From positions 77,572 through 141,571 of the forward strand of contig MEPC01000024.1 of assembly GCA_001769655.1 (NCBI GenBank): 64,000 nt of DNA. The letters are read 5' to 3'. The stretch's first letter is position 1; the number at the start of each line of letters is the position of its first letter. This document shows positions 37,961 to 42,922 of this stretch, piece after piece. The stretch is from Bacteroidetes bacterium RIFCSPLOWO2_12_FULL_37_12 (lineage in GTDB: Bacteria; Bacteroidota; Bacteroidia; 2-12-FULL-37-12). The notes under the pieces were generated by a model. The model saw only the letters and a list, made by a program, of their open reading frames with translations, searched no databases and was not told the DNA's origin. The position numbers were made by a program, and so were the translations under genes.

Positions 37961-38245
37961 GGTTATAAAGGTTAATATTTAATAAAGAAAGGCAAAGCTA
38001 TGTAAAAAAAACGAGATTAAAAAATTATTAATGAAATAATTTGAACTTCGTTTTGTGCCGTAGGCACGATTTAATTTTGTAATGATTGACTTTAGTCCGT
38101 CATTCAAATCTGTTCGTTTTATAACCAGATGTGCCCCTTCCTTCGTCAGGGTAAACTCCGGCACGATTTAATTTAGATTCTCAAATAGGTATCGCTCGTT
38201 ATATGGCACTTCAAACTTCTTCAATAACTCCAGATGCTCTTCTCT

Positions 38246-38505
38246 GAGCGTTTGTTTTTTTTATGTTTCGTTCCTACGGAACTCAACGGTCTTAAGTCAG
38301 GCGTTTCAACAACGGACTGAAGTCCGTTGTTACAATATGAACCGTTCCTACGGAACTTATTTTATAAGGCGTTTTTTCCTGCACAGGCAACCCTTCAATG
38401 GCTTGGAAGAGTCACCGAGTATCGTGCTGGTCAAATAAAATACAGTAATTATTGTTGATTTTTTTTTAATATCCAGGTGGGTGAAAACTTACTGGGATTT
38501 TTTAT
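38246..38505 (+). repeat. about 260-bp highly structured element, copy A (ends in intrinsic terminator)
   Basis: About 90% identical to 38909-39169. Contains nested perfect hairpins (gttcctacggaac twice; caacggactgaagtccgttg) and a terminal hairpin plus T-run. Confidence 0.8.
38471..38503 (+). terminator. Rho-independent terminator (atccaggtgggtgaaaacttactgggat + T7)
   Basis: Stem-loop followed by a T-run. A variant of the motif at 39137 and 41249. Confidence 0.6.
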
Positions 38506-38798
38506 AAGGGCAAATGAAAGGGTTTGGTATTGCAACATTTTAAATCCATGGATTTCAATTTAAAAATATAATTTGCCATTTCCCTCCCAAAACCGTCTAA
38601 ATAGCGTGTATTGATTAAAACATTTTTAACATTTTTATCTCCGTAACAAACCAACAATTCTCCAATATCATCCAAAGTACCATAATCAAAAACTCTTGAA
38701 ATAATATACTCGGCGTTTTTTTCATAGTCCAAATCCCTGAAAGCAACATCCCAGAATGCTTTCTTTGATAACTCAGGTTTATATTTATATTTAAGCAT
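38502..38798 (-). CDS. hypothetical small protein (98 aa) located between the two copies of the structured element
   Basis: Only an ORF. No family recognised. Confidence 0.3.
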   Translation of the reverse strand: MLKYKYKPELSKKAFWDVAFRDLDYEKNAEYIISRVFDYGTLDDIGELLVCYGDKNVKNVLINTRYLDGFGREMANYIFKLKSMDLKCCNTKPFHLPL

Positions 38799-38908
38799 AA
38801 TGCATCAAAACTCTTATACAAATGTAGGAATAATTTTCTATTTCAGAGTATAATGAAAAAAATTTCACATATACTAAAGTTTTATCATAACTTTAAACTA
38901 TAGGTCCA

Positions 38909-39169
38909 TGAGCGTTAGTTTTTTTTATGTTTCGTTCCTACGGAACTCAAGGTTCTGAAGTCAGGCGTTTCAACAACGGACTTCAGTCCGTTGTTACAAA
39001 ATGAACCGTTCCTACGGAACTGATTTTATAAGGCGTTTTTTCCTGCACAGGCAAACCTTCAATGGCTTGGTAGAGTCACCGAGTACCATACTGGTCAAAT
39101 AAAATACAGTAATTATTGTTGGTTCTTTTTCTATATCCCGGTGGGTGAAAACTTACCGGGATGTTTTTT
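38909..39169 (+). repeat. about 260-bp highly structured element, copy B (ends in intrinsic terminator)
   Basis: Direct repeat of 38246-38505. The terminal hairpin atcccggtgggtgaaaacttaccgggat + T7 has a perfect 9-bp stem. Confidence 0.8.
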
Positions 39170-39170
39170 T
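39137..39170 (+). terminator. Rho-independent terminator (atcccggtgggtgaaaacttaccgggat + T7)
   Basis: GC-rich 9-bp stem, 9-nt loop and T7 run. Confidence 0.75.
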
Positions 39171-39176
39171 CCCTGT

Positions 39177-39404
39177 TTATGCTACTTTTAATCGGACCAC
39201 TTCCAACTCAGCCCCGTTATTAACCGCTGCGGTTCCTAGTTTAAAAACTTTTTCGGTAATGTTTTCATCCAGATAATATGCGCCGCAAACAGGACAAACC
39301 ATAGCAGGTACTCCCTTGATTACTACTGTACTGTCATTTCTATTAAAAGATACGGTTACCTTTCCTTTGGTTGGGACACCGTGTTTACAATCAATACATT
39401 TCAT
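39177..39404 (-). CDS. YgiT-type zinc-ribbon protein (MqsA-N-like), putative antitoxin partner
   Basis: CIDC...CPVC four-Cys zinc ribbon (MKCIDCKHG...VKGVPAMVCPVCGAYYLDENITEKV). Overlaps the upstream DUF4258 gene by 4 nt. Confidence 0.65.
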   Translation of the reverse strand: MKCIDCKHGVPTKGKVTVSFNRNDSTVVIKGVPAMVCPVCGAYYLDENITEKVFKLGTAAVNNGAELEVVRLKVA

Positions 39405-39697
39405 ATTAGTGTTTTTTTCCTTGTTTTAAAATCAGATTTAAAGGTTGTTTTATCCGGAATATAAACCGTAATTATTATTTTTTTCTTTTCACCGATATCA
39501 TTTGCAACTACAACATGAATGGGTCTATGATTTACCATTTTAAACATTAAACAACTTGGGTAAGGATAATCATCTTTATAATCCTCTATTATTTCTCCAT
39601 GCTCTATCGTTTCAATTATTTCGTTTCTGTTAATGTTTCGTTCCAACATTCTAATAATTGCGTGGTCCTTAAAAACAATAATGCATTTCTCCTTCAT
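39401..39697 (-). CDS. DUF4258-like small protein, putative toxin partner of YgiT zinc-ribbon protein
   Basis: 98 aa in the usual DUF4258 to zinc-ribbon two-gene arrangement with ATGA overlap. No direct functional evidence. Confidence 0.5.
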   Translation of the reverse strand: MKEKCIIVFKDHAIIRMLERNINRNEIIETIEHGEIIEDYKDDYPYPSCLMFKMVNHRPIHVVVANDIGEKKKIIITVYIPDKTTFKSDFKTRKKTLI

Positions 39698-39780
39698 TAG
39701 AGGTTGGCGTATCTTTTATTACAAAGGTACAAATAATTTTCCTGAATTCCGCTCAGATGGAATCTGCAAAGAAGAATACG

Positions 39781-39815
39781 GCTATACCTTTACACCCCTA
39801 TACCTCTTTACCTTT
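39781..39815. repeat. CCTATACC-type octamer repeat cluster
   Basis: gctatacctttacacccctatacctctttacc. Confidence 0.6.
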
Positions 39816-40012
39816 CATATTCCACAACATGATTCAACATGAGTTACAGTGACACAATAAATGCGGTTTGTAAGATTTAATTGTGACCAATATCATTTAC
39901 TAATGTTTTTCCTATCATAAACCACCACTCTTATGCCTTTTACCTTTGTAACATGATTTAGATTAGTTTCTAACATCTCAACAATAATTAGAACCAATTA
40001 ACCAAAAAGAAC

Positions 40013-41227
40013 ATGAAAACCAACAAACTATTCAGAAATCTACCTATGATTGTAATTCTTTTCTTTATTACCATGTCAATGATTATTTCCTACACCTTTA
40101 CCGGTTGCAACAAGGAAGTTGACACAGTAACTGTCACCAATGATGTGCACGACACTTTAAAAGGGAAGTCAATTTCGGGAGCTTGCACTTATCCCGATTA
40201 TGCAGGGGCTAAAGTAAAAGCCAAAGGTGCTGTTATCTCGCTTTATACAGGTACATTAAAAACCGGAAATCCCGTAGCAACCGCTATTGCCGATACCAAT
40301 GGGAATTACATACTCCCTTACTTGCTTCCAGGCAGTTATTATATATATGCTATATATAATACGGAAAATAAAAATGCAAAAGAGATAAATGGAATTGATT
40401 TTTCAACGAACCCTGGTTATGCAGTTACGTTGGCTTCAACCAATTTGGTTCAAGCTATTGACCTTGTAACTTATGGAACTACCGGCACAACCAAAATATC
40501 TCTGGATACATCGGTTAATAAATATCGTTTAGTCACATTAGATAAAGCGCATAGCAGAATTAGTTTTGAAACACCTTATGGTCCAGCAAGTCAAGGTGCA
40601 AATTTCCCAGGTATTTTTGGCGCACTTAAAGGGCAACCATCACAGACCGCATTTAATTTAACCAAATTTGCATTTGATGAAGCCACTCCTGCTAACACTA
40701 AAATAGAGGGCTATGTTTTATTGAGTGAACGCTCAACCGGAGAAGACGGAAGAGATGCATTGGGACAATGCGGTTCTAAAGCATTACTTATTGATACTAT
40801 TGGAATGAAGGATAGTTTGGGTGTATATCGCGCACGTCCTGAAACCGATACTTGCAAATTTATCAGCCAATCTGTAATAAAATACGGAAACGGTTATTTA
40901 TGCAAAGCCATTTTAAGAGGGTTTTTGATGCACAAAGGACCTGGTAACGGCGATCCCATTTGCCCAACCTGCCCGGCTGATACCGCATTAAAATTTACAG
41001 GTCCTTATGATGTTGTAAGAGATTTACCTGTTGAAATGTACTTTGAGTTTGCCGGTAAGCAGAAATATGATAATGTGGATCCCAAGAAAATATATTATGG
41101 TTTCCCATTTGAAGGCGTCTTCACTTTTGATAAAACAAAAATCAATATCAAACACGCATCCATTGGTAACATGGTTAAAGTAAATTGCCATGTAAATATC
41201 AAAGGAATAGTTGGTAAAGAATATTAA
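40013..41227 (+). CDS. lipoprotein with N-terminal carboxypeptidase-regulatory-like beta-sandwich and YceI-like domain
   Basis: Lipobox FTGC. GAVISLYTGTLKTGNPVATAIADTNGNYILPYLLPGSYYIY resembles CarboxypepD_reg. VTLDKAHSRISFETPYG...FGALKG fits the YceI-like pattern. Confidence 0.45.
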   Translation: MKTNKLFRNLPMIVILFFITMSMIISYTFTGCNKEVDTVTVTNDVHDTLKGKSISGACTYPDYAGAKVKAKGAVISLYTGTLKTGNPVATAIADTNGNYILPYLLPGSYYIYAIYNTENKNAKEINGIDFSTNPGYAVTLASTNLVQAIDLVTYGTTGTTKISLDTSVNKYRLVTLDKAHSRISFETPYGPASQGANFPGIFGALKGQPSQTAFNLTKFAFDEATPANTKIEGYVLLSERSTGEDGRDALGQCGSKALLIDTIGMKDSLGVYRARPETDTCKFISQSVIKYGNGYLCKAILRGFLMHKGPGNGDPICPTCPADTALKFTGPYDVVRDLPVEMYFEFAGKQKYDNVDPKKIYYGFPFEGVFTFDKTKINIKHASIGNMVKVNCHVNIKGIVGKEY

Positions 41228-41248
41228 GAAAAAATTGGTTTATTTTGG

Positions 41249-41288
41249 CATCCCGGTAGGTGAAAACTTGCCGGGATGTTTTTTTTGT
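41249..41288 (+). terminator. Rho-independent terminator (catcccggtaggtgaaaacttgccgggatg + T8), third copy of the same hairpin
   Basis: Same stem and GGTGAAAAC loop as the terminators at 38471 and 39137. Lies 22 nt after the stop of 40013..41227. Confidence 0.75.
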
Positions 41289-41978: not shown

Positions 41979-41986
41979 AAGAAAAT

Positions 41987-42069
41987 GGGTATAAGGTATA
42001 AGGGTATAGGGTATAAGGGCGTAATTATTGTATTTCCCTTATACCCTTATACCTTTATACCCCTATACC
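41987..42069. repeat. inverted pair of GGTATAAGG / CCTTATACC arrays forming a long hairpin
   Basis: gggtataaggtataagggtatagggtataaggg - 14-nt loop - cccttatacccttatacctttatacccctatacc. Confidence 0.8.
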
Positions 42070-42100
42070 ATTTTTACTAATTTCCATAAACTCATTCAGC

Positions 42101-42922
42101 ATGTGTATAATGTATAGAATCTGGTTCTTTCTCCTTGTCATTTTCCTACCAGGATGTTCTACTCCAAACAGTAGTGAAGAGGGCAAAGAGCGTGAAATGG
42201 CTTTTAAGAATCATATTAAAAAAATTACAGAATTCAAAACTATTTTGAATTTGGGAGGGATTTGGTTAAAAGAACAGGTACATCGTGAGAAGTTTTTTGA
42301 TAAGAATGGTTTTAAGTTCAAAGAAATAACCCATTACGATGATGGGAGCATTGAAAACATTATTTCATTACAGTATGATAAAAATGGGAATTTAATATTC
42401 CGGAAAGCGGTTAACCCTGACAGCAGTGTATCTTACAGTGATAAAAGGGTGTTTGACGAGCATAACAACAAGATAGAATATTATTTTTACAATCCGGATA
42501 GTACTCTCCTCTACAGGAAACCTGCTGTGTATGACAAGGAAGGGAAAATGATTGAAAGCAGAATGTACCACGATGGAGAATGGAAAGCAACCTACAAGTA
42601 TAAATATCAAGACGCCAGAATGACTGAGAATAATATATATGATTCAACAGGTAATTTCAAGCATAAATGGCTATATGTATATGACAATAGAAATAATCTT
42701 ATTGAAGAGGTACAGTATAATTCACAGAATTATATTTCTTATCAAAACAAGTATGAATATACTAAGGACAATTTTTTGATCAAAGAAACCAACTATGTCG
42801 GAGAGGAGGTTCAACGCTCGTTTTCATACAAATACAATGGTAAAAATCTTATGGAAATTAAAAACGAATATGTTTATGGGAGGTTAAATTCAAAATTCAG
42901 ATATGAATATGATTATTATTAA
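42101..42922 (+). CDS. lipoprotein with short Y/D/N-rich repeats
   Basis: Lipobox LPGC. Repeated ..YD..GN.I.. units. No catalytic motif. Confidence 0.4.
   Translation: MCIMYRIWFFLLVIFLPGCSTPNSSEEGKEREMAFKNHIKKITEFKTILNLGGIWLKEQVHREKFFDKNGFKFKEITHYDDGSIENIISLQYDKNGNLIFRKAVNPDSSVSYSDKRVFDEHNNKIEYYFYNPDSTLLYRKPAVYDKEGKMIESRMYHDGEWKATYKYKYQDARMTENNIYDSTGNFKHKWLYVYDNRNNLIEEVQYNSQNYISYQNKYEYTKDNFLIKETNYVGEEVQRSFSYKYNGKNLMEIKNEYVYGRLNSKFRYEYDYY

What the first reader, a model, noticed from the sequence alone, without database searches (positions are those of the whole stretch)
38246..39169. Two copies of an about 260-bp palindrome-rich element, each ending in the same intrinsic terminator, bracketing a small ORF; the terminator motif recurs a third time at 41249
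Copies at 38246-38505 and 38909-39169 are about 90% identical. Both lie on the + strand. Both contain nested perfect hairpins (gttcctacggaac twice; caacggactgaagtccgttg). Both end with atcc(c/a)ggtgggtgaaaacttac(c/t)gggat plus a T-run. The identical stem and loop (GGTGAAAAC) plus T8 terminates the gene at 40013..41227. The elements carry no ORF. They look like either a duplicated structured sRNA gene or terminator-carrying miniature repeats, not a known riboswitch. Their stems differ at 5 or more positions (the hairpin at 38279-38298 is perfect in copy A and has 2 mismatches in copy B), so compensatory-versus-independent change could be scored. They flank a 98-aa ORF on the opposite strand.
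Basis: seen in the sequence. Interest (0 to 1): 0.65.

Follow-up and report, generated by a model that had tools for sequence, protein, structure and literature searches.

The report
Duplicated relic of a transposase flank
The two 260-bp repeats are leftover flanking DNA of a dead IS200-like transposase gene, built from three DNA hairpins of a repeat family common in Bacteroidota and joined to a copy of a neighbouring gene's terminator, so they are most likely genomic debris and not small-RNA genes.

Summary
Copy A (38245-38505) and copy B (38909-39169) are 92% identical, and both end in the hairpin plus T-run that also follows the gene ending at 41227.

The element is a mosaic:
- **Left ~115 nt.** This is a three-hairpin module: GTTCCTACGGAAC, a 10-bp hairpin, TTACAA, 7 nt, then GTTCCTACGGAAC. 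The same module flanks ~153-aa Y1 (HUH) transposase genes of the IS200-like "subclass 1.2". It also occurs dispersed in more than 115 loci, mainly of Bacteroidota and Ignavibacteria, with strong stem covariation.
- **Link to a dead gene.** In copy A the module is still joined, across an internal deletion, to the last 30 codons of such a transposase gene (38260-38171, minus strand). A third, inverted module lies at 38052-38106.
- **Right ~60 nt.** This is a paralogue of the native terminator of the 404-aa gene, which is conserved at the orthologous site in a relative.
- **Middle ~90 nt.** It matches nothing I could search.

A model of the module finds no further copy in the 64-kb window. No promoter was found. 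Copy A's terminator is decaying. In other genomes the module's orientation is independent of flanking genes.

Verdict: a locally duplicated relic of a REP/RAYT-like locus, not an sRNA. The wider point is that this transposase subclass was reported to lack associated repeats.

The parts
38245..38505 (+). Copy A of the 260-bp repeat. It is a mosaic: transposase leader/deletion junction, three-hairpin module, ~90-nt unexplained spacer, and 60-nt terminator module.
   Evidence: 92% identity to copy B.
38909..39169 (+). Copy B of the 260-bp repeat, with the same mosaic. Its left end carries only ~16 nt of the junction sequence.
38270..38282 (+). H1 of copy A: GTTCC-TAC-GGAAC hairpin.
   Evidence: -4.8 kcal/mol. 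The same hairpin sits ~23 nt before the ATG of intact transposase genes.
38308..38331 (+). H2 of copy A: 10-bp hairpin with loop TGAA.
   Evidence: -13.5 kcal/mol. Family-wide covariation in 8 of 8 core pairs.
38330..38335 (+). TTACAA hexamer of copy A. It reads YTACAA in independently chosen loci. It is the candidate cleavage or recognition site.
   Evidence: The cleavage role is inferred by analogy with IS608.
38344..38356 (+). H3 of copy A: GTTCC-TAC-GGAAC hairpin.
   Evidence: At the one free stem pair the family shows T-A 79, G-C 29 and mismatched 3.
38934..38946 (+). H1 of copy B.
38972..38995 (+). H2 of copy B: same stem as in A, with the loop flipped to TTCA.
   Evidence: (I2).
38994..38999 (+). 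TTACAA hexamer of copy B.
39008..39020 (+). H3 of copy B.
38171..38260 (-). Remnant of a Y1 (HUH) transposase gene of IS200-like subclass 1.2. It keeps the last 29-30 codons (KKQTLREEHLELLKKFEVPYNERYLFENLN). The stop codon is at 38170-38168.
   Evidence: tblastn with 10 of 10 transposases from module-bearing loci, E from 7e-9 to 5e-3. No intact copy exists in the window.
38131..38164 (-). GTGCC...GGCAC hairpin with a long loop, just after the remnant's stop codon. In intact loci a GAGCC-TAC-GGCTC hairpin holds this position.
   Evidence: read directly from the sequence.
38052..38106 (-). Third, diverged module downstream of the remnant and inverted relative to A and B. It has a decayed H2, then TTACAA, 8 nt and GTGCC-TAC-GGCAC.
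   Evidence: 55.5 bits; this sequence was in the model's training alignment. The H3 stem carries a compensatory T-A to G-C change.
38358..38445 (+). Spacer of copy A, unexplained. The matching stretch of copy B is 39022-39109.
   Evidence: No match in 115 module loci, plasmids or phages. In the longest shared reading frame all differences between A and B change the amino acid.
38446..38505 (+). Terminator module of copy A: TTGATT, T9, hairpin 38471-38498, then the T-run. The stem is weakened by one A-G mismatch and one extra G-U pair.
   Evidence: -11.6 kcal/mol. The L009 breakpoint falls at 38446.
39110..39170 (+). Terminator module of copy B: hairpin 39135-39162, then G and T7. It is intact.
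   Evidence: -22.1 kcal/mol.
41239..41286 (+). Native terminator of the 404-aa gene: hairpin 41250-41277, then G and T8. It is the probable source of the terminator module in A and B.
   Evidence: 33 of 35 nt identical to B. It is conserved at the orthologous site in L130 (92% over 50 nt), with diverged hairpins at the same site in L128 and L131.
38502..38798 (-). DUF6922 gene (98 aa) between the two copies. Its stop codon overlaps the T-run of copy A.
   Evidence: E 6e-19. A promoter-like site lies at 38826-38847.

Best explanation
The two 260-bp copies are paralogous pieces of a decayed REP/RAYT-like locus. They are not genes.

**Left ~115 nt.** This is the upstream flank of an IS200-like Y1 (HUH) transposase gene of "subclass 1.2". 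It holds two small hairpins (H1 and H3, GTTCC-TAC-GGAAC), a longer hairpin (H2) and the hexamer TTACAA.

**Relation to the dead gene.**
- In copy A the flank is still attached to the last 30 codons of the gene. An internal deletion removed about 120 codons, probably between A-rich microhomologies in the leader and near codon 120.
- A second, inverted module follows the stop codon, as at intact loci.
- Copy B carries the same junction. It therefore arose by duplication after the deletion.

**Right ~60 nt.** This is a copy of the native terminator of the nearby 404-aa gene.

**How it works (inferred).** In genomes with an intact enzyme, the hairpins are single-strand DNA recognition sites for the Y1 transposase and YTACAA is its cleavage or target site. 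This is how the modules spread and form arrays. In this window the enzyme gene is dead, so the modules are inert relics. At most they act as sites for local recombination or template switching, and on the + strand as a transcription stop facing the ends of two convergent genes.

**Shown:** the anatomy, the homologies, the covariation, and the link between module and transposase.
**Inferred:** binding and cleavage by the enzyme, the order of events, and the direction in which the terminator was copied.
For: **1. Transposase remnant.** Window 38260-38171 (minus strand) matches the C-terminal tail of all 10 transposases found next to modules elsewhere. E values run from 7e-9 to 5e-3.

**2. Identity of those proteins.**
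- Pfam Y1_Tnp, E 7e-27; NCBIfam IS200, E 2e-21.
- They carry DHxH, WQ, Y..NQ..HH and a 30-aa tail. These are the defining features of subclass 1.2 in PMC6006769.
- The closest solved structure is IS608 TnpA, E 1.2e-10.

**3. Module found first, transposase second.**
- The pattern TTACAA-N6-9-CGTKCCTACGGMAC hit more than 115 genome loci. My estimate of the chance expectation is about 17. It hit 0 viral contigs.
- 14 of 115 loci carry this transposase, and 12 of them within ~400 bp of the module.

**4. Transposase found first, module second.** Four independently chosen subclass 1.2 genes all have modules at 55-67 bits within ~550 nt. None occur elsewhere in their 3-kb flanks. A 36-kb negative control gave no match.

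**5. Direct homology of the element.**
- The left ~100 nt aligns at 78-81% with transposase flanks in other genomes.
- The stretch AGTTCCGTAGGAACGAAACATA is identical to the leader of an intact gene in L138.

**6. Stems are under selection.**
- H2 has changes on both sides in 8 of 8 pairs, and 97.5% of cells are paired. 0 of 500 shuffles reach the observed score.
- Between A and B there are no differences in the 50 core positions and 20 in the rest (P = 0.011).

**7. A DNA-level signature, not an RNA one.**
- Only 3 G-U cells among 650.
- Orientation is sense 33 against antisense 34 in gaps between co-directional genes.
- 94% of copies are intergenic. 24 lie in convergent gaps and 5 in divergent gaps.
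- The H2 loop is flipped between A and B.

**8. The terminator at 41250 is ancestral at its own site**. A and B share a ~50-60-nt module with it.

**9. No other module occurs in the 64-kb window**.
Against: - The middle ~90 nt of the element remains unexplained.
- A strong + strand terminator (copy B, -22 kcal/mol, T7) with no + strand gene in front of it is odd for pure debris. It leaves room for a transcript.
- The exact deletion junction is ambiguous. The A-rich leader and the KKQT codons look alike, and in copy B an ATGG sits at the distance from H1 expected for the original start codon. On that reading A and B could be two transposase copies that decayed independently.
- I could not scan the rest of the source genome. 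Further copies of the 260-bp unit, or an intact transposase gene, cannot be excluded.
- No experiment shows that subclass 1.2 enzymes bind or cut these hairpins.
- The invariance of TTACAA in the first set of loci was imposed by my search pattern. Only the independently chosen loci speak to it, and they give YTACAA.
Confidence: 0.75

Rival explanations
1. Each copy is a gene for a structured + strand RNA of about 250 nt ending at its own intrinsic terminator. This could be a free-standing sRNA. It could also be, originally, an antisense regulator of the transposase leader, as known for IS200 and IS10 (from my own knowledge).
For: - Copy B has a canonical strong terminator with no ORF upstream.
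- The predicted folds are more stable than shuffles: z = -4.4 for B and -2.4 for A.
- The hairpin cores are conserved between the copies.
- The unit begins where the transposase leader lies and runs antisense to it.
- There is a sub-threshold match to Rfam Acido-Lenti-1, which is classed as an sRNA: 27.6 bits, E 0.0017.
Against: - No Bacteroidetes-type or sigma-70-type promoter is shared by the copies. Promoter-like sites occur at the background rate.
- Copy A's terminator has two non-compensatory stem changes and half the stability of B's.
- The 150 nt that would make up most of the RNA are found in no related locus.
- In other genomes the module has no preferred orientation relative to genes, and its stems avoid G-U pairs.
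- The terminator is a copy of a neighbouring gene's terminator.
- No Rfam family reaches its gathering score.
Confidence: 0.1
2. The 260-bp unit is an active non-autonomous mobile element of the MITE or REPIN type. A Y1 transposase encoded elsewhere in the genome would move it as a whole, and copy B would be a transposed copy.
For: - It carries the hairpins associated with a Y1 transposase family.
- The two copies have sharp, shared boundaries.
- Short contigs break inside the repeat, as expected for repeated DNA (L010).
- The module family is multi-copy in other genomes: at least 13 loci in one Saprospiraceae MAG.
Against: - Only two copies were seen, 664 bp apart, and none elsewhere in 64 kb.
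- The left boundary lies within the remnant of the transposase gene or its leader, not at a module edge.
- The right boundary is the end of a borrowed terminator.
- There are no terminal inverted repeats, no target duplication and no shared flanking tetranucleotide.
- The 8% divergence argues against recent movement.
- All strain variants recovered carry identical copies at the same site.
Confidence: 0.1
3. The elements are cassette boundaries: recombination sites like integron attC, or the product of Campbell-type integration of a circle carrying one element plus the DUF6922 gene. This would explain why direct repeats bracket a small accessory gene next to a toxin-antitoxin pair.
For: - Each minus-strand unit (the DUF4258/MqsA-like pair, and DUF6922) is followed directly by one element.
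- The whole 2-kb islet is absent next to the orthologous gene in a relative.
- One variant contig joins DUF6922 plus the 60-nt terminator module to unrelated DNA.
Against: - The repeat is 260 bp, longer than attC sites.
- Its identifiable parts are a transposase flank and a gene terminator.
- No attC core sites were seen by eye, and no integrase search was done.
- The variant contig is 664 bp long and may be chimeric.
Confidence: 0.04

Closest known systems
REP/BIME repeats with their RAYT (TnpA_REP) transposase, also called REPtrons or REPIN-RAYT systems (PMC2817692, PMC3116915, PMC6006769)
   Same: - Short palindromic units that are intergenic and multi-copy in many genomes.
- They form clusters in alternating orientation.
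- They flank a low-copy Y1 HUH transposase gene. That gene sits at a syntenic position in two Flavobacterium species.
- They are enriched at gene 3' ends.
   Different: - The associated enzyme is class 1 (IS200-like subclass 1.2, Y..Q..HH motif). RAYTs are class 2 (Y...NP).
- The unit is a three-hairpin module with YTACAA. A classical REP is a single hairpin headed by GTAG.
- The published survey lists subclass 1.2 as having no REPs.
- In this window the locus is dead, and only three clustered modules remain.
IS200/IS605 insertion sequences such as IS608 and IS200
   Same: - The enzyme is most similar to IS608 TnpA among solved structures, and NCBIfam files it under IS200.
- Small hairpins lie on both sides of the gene.
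- TTAC, the IS608 target and cleavage tetranucleotide (from my own knowledge), sits 5' of a hairpin.
   Different: - Intact genes of this subclass are single-copy and syntenic, not multi-copy identical elements (PMC6006769).
- The hairpin modules occur far from any transposase gene and in arrays.
- No tnpB gene accompanies them.
Rfam Acido-Lenti-1 RNA motif (RF01687)
   Same: The layout is the same: an 8-bp hairpin, a linker of about 14 nt containing UA..UAUG, then CGU-N-CCU-N-CGG-N-ACU (alignment).
   Different: - The score is 27.6 bits against a gathering score of 37.
- None of 18 module-bearing loci reaches the threshold.
- The Rfam family is described from Acidobacteria and Lentisphaerae as a probable sRNA.
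- Whether it is the same kind of DNA element was not tested.
Intrinsic (Rho-independent) terminators
   Same: Copy B and the site at 41250 have a 12-14-bp G+C-rich stem, a GAAA loop and a run of 7-8 T.
   Different: In A and B no + strand gene precedes the terminator, and copy A's stem is degraded.

Membership tests
REP/BIME-RAYT (REPtron) systems | Short palindromic (hairpin-forming) repeat units | tested here: met
   H1, H2 and H3 are present. Family-wide stem covariation is strong.
REP/BIME-RAYT (REPtron) systems | Units flank a Y1 (HUH) transposase gene | tested here: met
   The window has a gene remnant between inverted modules. Elsewhere 12 of 14 transposase-bearing loci, and 4 of 4 independently chosen genes, have modules within about 550 nt.
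REP/BIME-RAYT (REPtron) systems | Many dispersed copies in the same genome | tested here: inconclusive
   The 64-kb window has only three modules, all at this locus. The rest of the source genome could not be scanned. Other genomes have at least 5-13 loci each.
REP/BIME-RAYT (REPtron) systems | Conserved GTAG (or CGTC) tetranucleotide at the head of the palindrome | tested here: not met
   The conserved unpaired motif is YTACAA, which lies 6-9 nt 5' of H3.
REP/BIME-RAYT (REPtron) systems | Associated enzyme is a class 2 TnpA_REP/RAYT (Y...NP motif) | tested here: not met
   The enzymes carry Y..NQ..HH and score 29-35 bits against a cut-off of 80 for NCBIfam REP_Tyr_transpos. They pass the IS200 model. 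This is subclass 1.2 of PMC6006769.
IS200/IS605 insertion sequence | Encodes an intact Y1 transposase | tested here: not met
   Only the last 30 codons remain.
IS200/IS605 insertion sequence | Subterminal hairpins at both ends, with defined cleavage sites | tested here: inconclusive
   Hairpin modules lie on both sides of the remnant and of intact genes. The ends and cleavage sites are not defined.
IS200/IS605 insertion sequence | Several near-identical full copies per genome | tested here: not met
   The gene sits at a syntenic position in two Flavobacterium species. The literature gives 1.7 copies per genome with low identity between them.
MITE / non-autonomous transposon | Terminal inverted repeats and a target-site duplication, or shared insertion target, at the ends of the 260-bp unit | tested here: not met
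   The sequences on either side of both copies share nothing. The left edge lies inside the transposase remnant.
Small RNA gene | Promoter, terminator and conservation of the transcribed region in relatives | tested here: not met
   A terminator is present. No shared promoter was found. The 150-nt body is not found in relatives. Transcription itself cannot be tested with these tools.
Rfam Acido-Lenti-1 (RF01687) | Score at or above the family's gathering threshold | tested here: not met
   27.6 bits against 37. No match at the gathering threshold in the window or in 18 module loci.
Integron attC site | Imperfect palindrome of 57-141 bp with RYYYAAC/GTTRRRY core sites, next to cassettes and an integrase gene | not tested
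   No attC model or integrase search was run. By eye the core sites are absent. The identifiable parts have other origins.

The most novel reading that the evidence does not exclude
IS200-like Y1 transposases of subclass 1.2 were published as low-copy, lacking IS properties and having no associated REPs. They may in fact own a cognate repeat: the three-hairpin YTACAA module. This would make a second, independently evolved REP/RAYT-type partnership, widespread in Bacteroidota and Ignavibacteria. In it the enzyme is inherited vertically, and its single-strand DNA hairpin substrates multiply and form arrays. The Rfam Acido-Lenti-1 "sRNA" would then be the same kind of DNA element in other phyla.
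Probability: 0.45. Interest if true: 0.55.

Novelty: new member of a known kind. Interest (0 to 1): 0.35.

Why it matters
For this window it matters little. The region is a scar of a dead transposase locus, copied once. It sits in a small variable islet together with a toxin-antitoxin pair and a DUF6922 gene.

The wider lead is more useful:
- A very large Y1 transposase subclass has been an orphan, with no known DNA substrate. A search for it returned at least 7962 proteins at E of 1e-20 or better.
- This analysis gives it a concrete candidate substrate with a defined consensus.
- That makes binding and cleavage assays possible. It also allows comparative studies of how such repeats spread in Bacteroidota.

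The case is also a caution. Covarying hairpins next to a terminator can look like an sRNA and still be DNA-level transposase sites.

Tried and rejected
- **Rfam on the window and on 18 related loci.** Only tRNAs reached the gathering threshold. The best other match was Acido-Lenti-1, below threshold.
- **Pfam, NCBIfam and PHROGs on translations of the remnant and of the element's minus strand.** Nothing matched, because these profiles do not cover the C-terminal tail. The remnant was recognised only with transposases recovered from module-bearing loci.
- **Reading the whole element as a decayed transposase pseudogene.** Rejected: tblastn matches only the last 30 codons.
- **Looking for gene remnants beyond copy B's left edge.** Local alignments to four intact genes and to copy A's remnant scored no better than shuffles.
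- **Metagenome scan for the terminator hairpin.** It gave two matches with no T-run and no other similarity, so they look like chance. That collection seems not to hold the source organism.
- **blastn of 38030-38510 against plasmids and phages.** No match.
- **Module pattern in viral contigs.** No match.
- **Right 150 nt against 115 module loci.** Nothing below E 0.09.
- **Promoter scans.** Both the sigma-70 type and a home-made Bacteroidetes -33/-7 pattern found sites only at the background rate. They did pick out plausible promoters for the 1059-aa and DUF6922 genes.
- **Synteny with the closest relatives, to define insertion boundaries.** The relative lacks the whole islet, and its upstream gene differs. 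Exact boundaries could not be set.
- **Type III toxin-antitoxin RNA repeats, CRISPR repeats, and TnpB/IscB guide RNAs.** These were considered and dropped. The gene context does not fit, and Rfam holds the HEARO/IscB family (from my own knowledge) yet gave no match.
Full report
**1. The observation**

The two copies are real. They span 38245-38505 and 38909-39169 on the + strand. They align without gaps at 92%, with 20 differences in 259 nt. Homology starts sharply at TGAGCGTT and ends just after the T-run.

- Each copy holds GTTCCTACGGAAC twice.
- Each holds a 10-bp hairpin.
- Each ends in the hairpin ATCC(C/A)GGTGGGTGAAAACTTAC(C/T)GGGAT followed by T's.

That last hairpin recurs once more, at 41250-41277, after the 404-aa gene. 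It occurs nowhere else in the window.

- The 10-bp hairpin has loop TGAA in A and TTCA in B. These are reverse complements.
- The stretch 38279-38298 does not fold.
- A and B show no compensatory change. The three module stems are identical. The two substitutions in the terminator stem are not partners, and they halve its stability in A: -11.6 against -22.1 kcal/mol.

**2. What lies next to copy A**

On the minus strand, 38260-38171 reads KKQTLREEHLELLKKFEVPYNERYLFENLN followed by a stop codon. Profile libraries did not recognise this peptide. The identification came from related loci, described below.

Downstream of the stop, still on the minus strand, lie two features:
- a GTGCC...GGCAC hairpin;
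- a diverged copy of the core module, made of a decayed hairpin, TTACAA, 8 nt and GTGCC-TAC-GGCAC, at 38052-38106.

Its stem carries a compensatory T-A to G-C change relative to A and B.

**3. The module is a widespread family**

I scanned one genome per species for TTACAA-N6-9-CGTKCCTACGGMAC. I estimate about 17 hits by chance. The same pattern has no match in 2.9 million viral contigs.

The loci come overwhelmingly from Bacteroidota and Ignavibacteria MAGs and isolates. Some genomes contribute 5 to 13 or more loci each.

Structure in the family:
- In 68 of 111 distinct instances, an 8-bp hairpin directly precedes TTACAA.
- At the one stem pair of H3 that my pattern left free, T-A occurs 79 times, G-C 29 times and a mismatch 3 times.
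- On a 50-sequence alignment, all 8 pairs of H2 show changes on both sides, and 97.5% of cells are paired.
- No shuffle or slid register comes close to that. The caveat is that these rows were chosen for having a hairpin there.
- Only 3 of 650 cells are G-U.

A covariance model built from this alignment gave these results:
- 171 matches in 100 of the loci, often clustered in alternating orientation;
- only the three known modules in the 64-kb window;
- none in 36 kb from the closest relatives and two unrelated contigs.

No Rfam family reaches its threshold on the window or on 18 module loci. The nearest is Acido-Lenti-1, at 27.6 bits against 37, with a similar layout.

**4. The module belongs with a Y1 transposase**

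I clustered the ORFs lying within 1.5 kb of modules. The commonest neighbour is a ~153-aa protein. It matches Pfam Y1_Tnp at E 7e-27 and the NCBIfam IS200 model. It falls below the cut-off of the RAYT model.

Its motifs are DHxH, WQ and Y..NQ..HH, plus a conserved 30-aa tail. These are the features that define "subclass 1.2" in Quentin et al. 2018 (PMC6006769). Its closest solved relative is IS608 TnpA.

The link between module and gene holds in both directions:
- **From module to gene.** 14 of 115 loci carry the gene, 12 of them within ~400 bp of a module. For a gene present once or twice per genome, well under one such case is expected.
- **From gene to module.** I picked four subclass 1.2 genes from a protein search, without reference to the motif. 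All four have modules at 55-67 bits within ~550 nt. None occur elsewhere in their 3-kb flanks.

In these independent loci the hexamer reads YTACAA. H3 varies as GTTCC/GGAAC, GAGCC/GGCTC and GTCCC/GGGAC.

In Flavobacterium sp. NG2 and F. daejeonense the gene sits between the same two neighbours. That suggests vertical inheritance of a single copy.

All ten transposases from the first set match window 38260-38171, with E from 7e-9 to 5e-3. They match nothing else in the window. The peptide next to copy A is therefore the tail of a dead gene of this family.

**5. Anatomy of the 260-bp unit**

- **Left ~115 nt (H1 to H3).** It aligns at 78-81% over ~100 nt with the flanks of intact genes in other genomes. 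Read on the minus strand, AGTTCCGTAGGAACGAAACATA is identical to the sequence that runs into the start codon in L138. This part is the upstream flank and leader of the transposase gene, seen from the opposite strand.
- **The junction.** After the leader, copy A continues in frame into codon ~124 of the gene.
  - The intact leader (GAAACATATAAAAAC) and codons 119-124 (GAAGAACATCATAAAAAGC) share an A-rich stretch of about 14 nt. The loss of ~120 codons is well explained by deletion between these microhomologies (inference).
  - Copy B shares the junction for about 16 nt and then diverges. Beyond that point it shows no similarity to transposase genes or to A's remnant. B was therefore most likely copied from an already deleted locus.
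  - An alternative cannot be excluded. The shared part could be an intact leader ending at the start codon, since B has ATGG at the expected distance from H1.
- **Right ~60 nt.** It shares 33 of 35 positions (copy B) with the terminator of the 404-aa gene.
  - That terminator is ancestral at its own site. The orthologous gene in L130 (71% protein identity) is followed by ATCCCGGTAAGTGAAAACTTGCCGGGAT plus T8.
  - More distant orthologues carry diverged hairpins at the same place.
  - The inner edge of this module coincides with the point where a variant 664-bp contig (L009) departs from the window.
- **Middle ~90 nt.** It matched nothing I could search. It shows no sign of coding constraint.

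**6. DNA element or RNA?**

Four lines favour a DNA-level element:
- In other genomes the module is 94% intergenic.
  - It lies in convergent gaps more often than in divergent ones, 24 against 5.
  - It shows no orientation preference relative to co-directional genes, 33 against 34.
- G-U pairs are nearly absent.
- The loop flip in H2 is the signature of an inversion within a DNA palindrome.
- The partner protein belongs to a family that acts on single-stranded DNA hairpins. This is established for IS608 and for TnpA_REP; I state it from my own knowledge and from PMC6006769.

Against an sRNA in this window:
- There is no shared promoter.
- Copy A's terminator is decaying.
- The 150-nt body is not conserved.
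- The terminator is borrowed.

What keeps the sRNA reading alive, at about 10%, is copy B's excellent terminator with nothing obvious to terminate. It is also true that a + strand RNA from here would be antisense to the transposase leader.

**7. Context**

The 2 kb between the 1059-aa secreted protein gene and the 404-aa gene holds these features:
- the transposase remnant;
- both copies of the repeat;
- a DUF6922 gene;
- a DUF4258/MqsA-like pair.

A relative with conserved downstream synteny lacks all of these. All recovered strains of the source population, a Rifle aquifer Bacteroidota MAG, carry identical copies at this site.

**8. Verdict**

The finding is a true repeat. It is a locally duplicated relic of a REP/RAYT-like locus fused to a copy of a neighbouring terminator. 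It is not a riboswitch and probably not an sRNA.

It is a new member of a known kind. The one point that goes beyond the ordinary is at the family level. The published survey of Y1 enzymes lists subclass 1.2 as having no REPs and no typical terminal structures. I found no later description in the searchable literature. Here the subclass is consistently flanked by a conserved, covarying, multi-copy hairpin module.

**Limits**
- TTACAA was fixed by my first search pattern.
- MAG taxonomy labels for a few outlier loci may be wrong.
- Binding and cleavage by the enzyme are inferred, not shown.

Noticed in passing
window 39776-39817 and 41985-42087: Runs of an 8-bp periodic motif (TATACCYY, and its complement GGTATAAGG in the second region) lie just upstream of the 404-aa gene and of the 273-aa gene at 42101. 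They may be shared regulator binding sites for this gene cluster (D2, I5, I9, I12, I14).
   Followed up: no
window 39177-39697 (minus strand): A two-gene operon encodes a DUF4258 protein (E 1e-22) and a small MqsA/YokU-like zinc-finger protein. It looks like a toxin-antitoxin pair, and it ends 8 nt from copy B.
   Followed up: partly
L009 (664-bp contig), window 38446: A variant contig matches window 38924-38446 at 99.4%. It then continues into unrelated DNA with an aminotransferase-like start. The break falls exactly at the inner edge of the 60-nt terminator module. It could be a rearranged strain or a chimeric assembly.
   Followed up: partly
window 38318-38321 and 38982-38985: The loop of the 10-bp hairpin is TGAA in copy A and TTCA in copy B, its reverse complement. 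Relatives such as L029 have the copy A orientation. One inversion within the palindrome explains this better than two adjacent substitutions.
   Followed up: partly
L132 3001-3462 and L133 3001-3462: The subclass 1.2 transposase gene lies between the same nucleoside-transporter-like (Gate) gene and fumarase gene in Flavobacterium sp. NG2 and F. daejeonense. This looks like a vertically inherited single-copy gene, not a hopping insertion sequence.
   Followed up: partly
L012 1840-2235; L029 1905-2398; L061 3852-4347; L135 2457-2964: Modules form regular arrays, some with alternating orientation. The period is 183 nt in two unrelated genomes, 97 nt in L061 and about 78 nt in L135. These resemble BIME-type clusters.
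   Followed up: no
L030, L106, L060, L063, L071, L077, L118, L067, L104: Module-bearing contigs come from MAGs labelled Acidobacteriaceae, Methylacidiphilales, Comamonadaceae and Bifidobacterium. Some are nearly identical to Bacteroidia copies. This could be mis-binning or transfer between phyla.
   Followed up: no
window 38310-38357: There is a sub-threshold match to Rfam Acido-Lenti-1 with the same hairpin-linker-hairpin layout. The Rfam family may itself be a transposase-associated DNA repeat and not an sRNA.
   Followed up: partly
window 37961-40012 compared with L128 9931-10001: The 2-kb stretch holding the remnant, both copies, DUF6922 and the toxin-antitoxin pair has no counterpart next to the orthologous gene in a relative. 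Downstream gene order is conserved there. The stretch is a small variable islet at a synteny break.
   Followed up: partly
window 38484-38514 (minus strand): Read on the minus strand, the terminator hairpin of copy A contains TAAGTTTT. With a TTTG 19 nt upstream, this resembles a Bacteroidetes -33/-7 promoter pointing towards the module. Copy B lacks the TTTG, and such sites occur at about 0.9 per kb, so it is probably chance.
   Followed up: no
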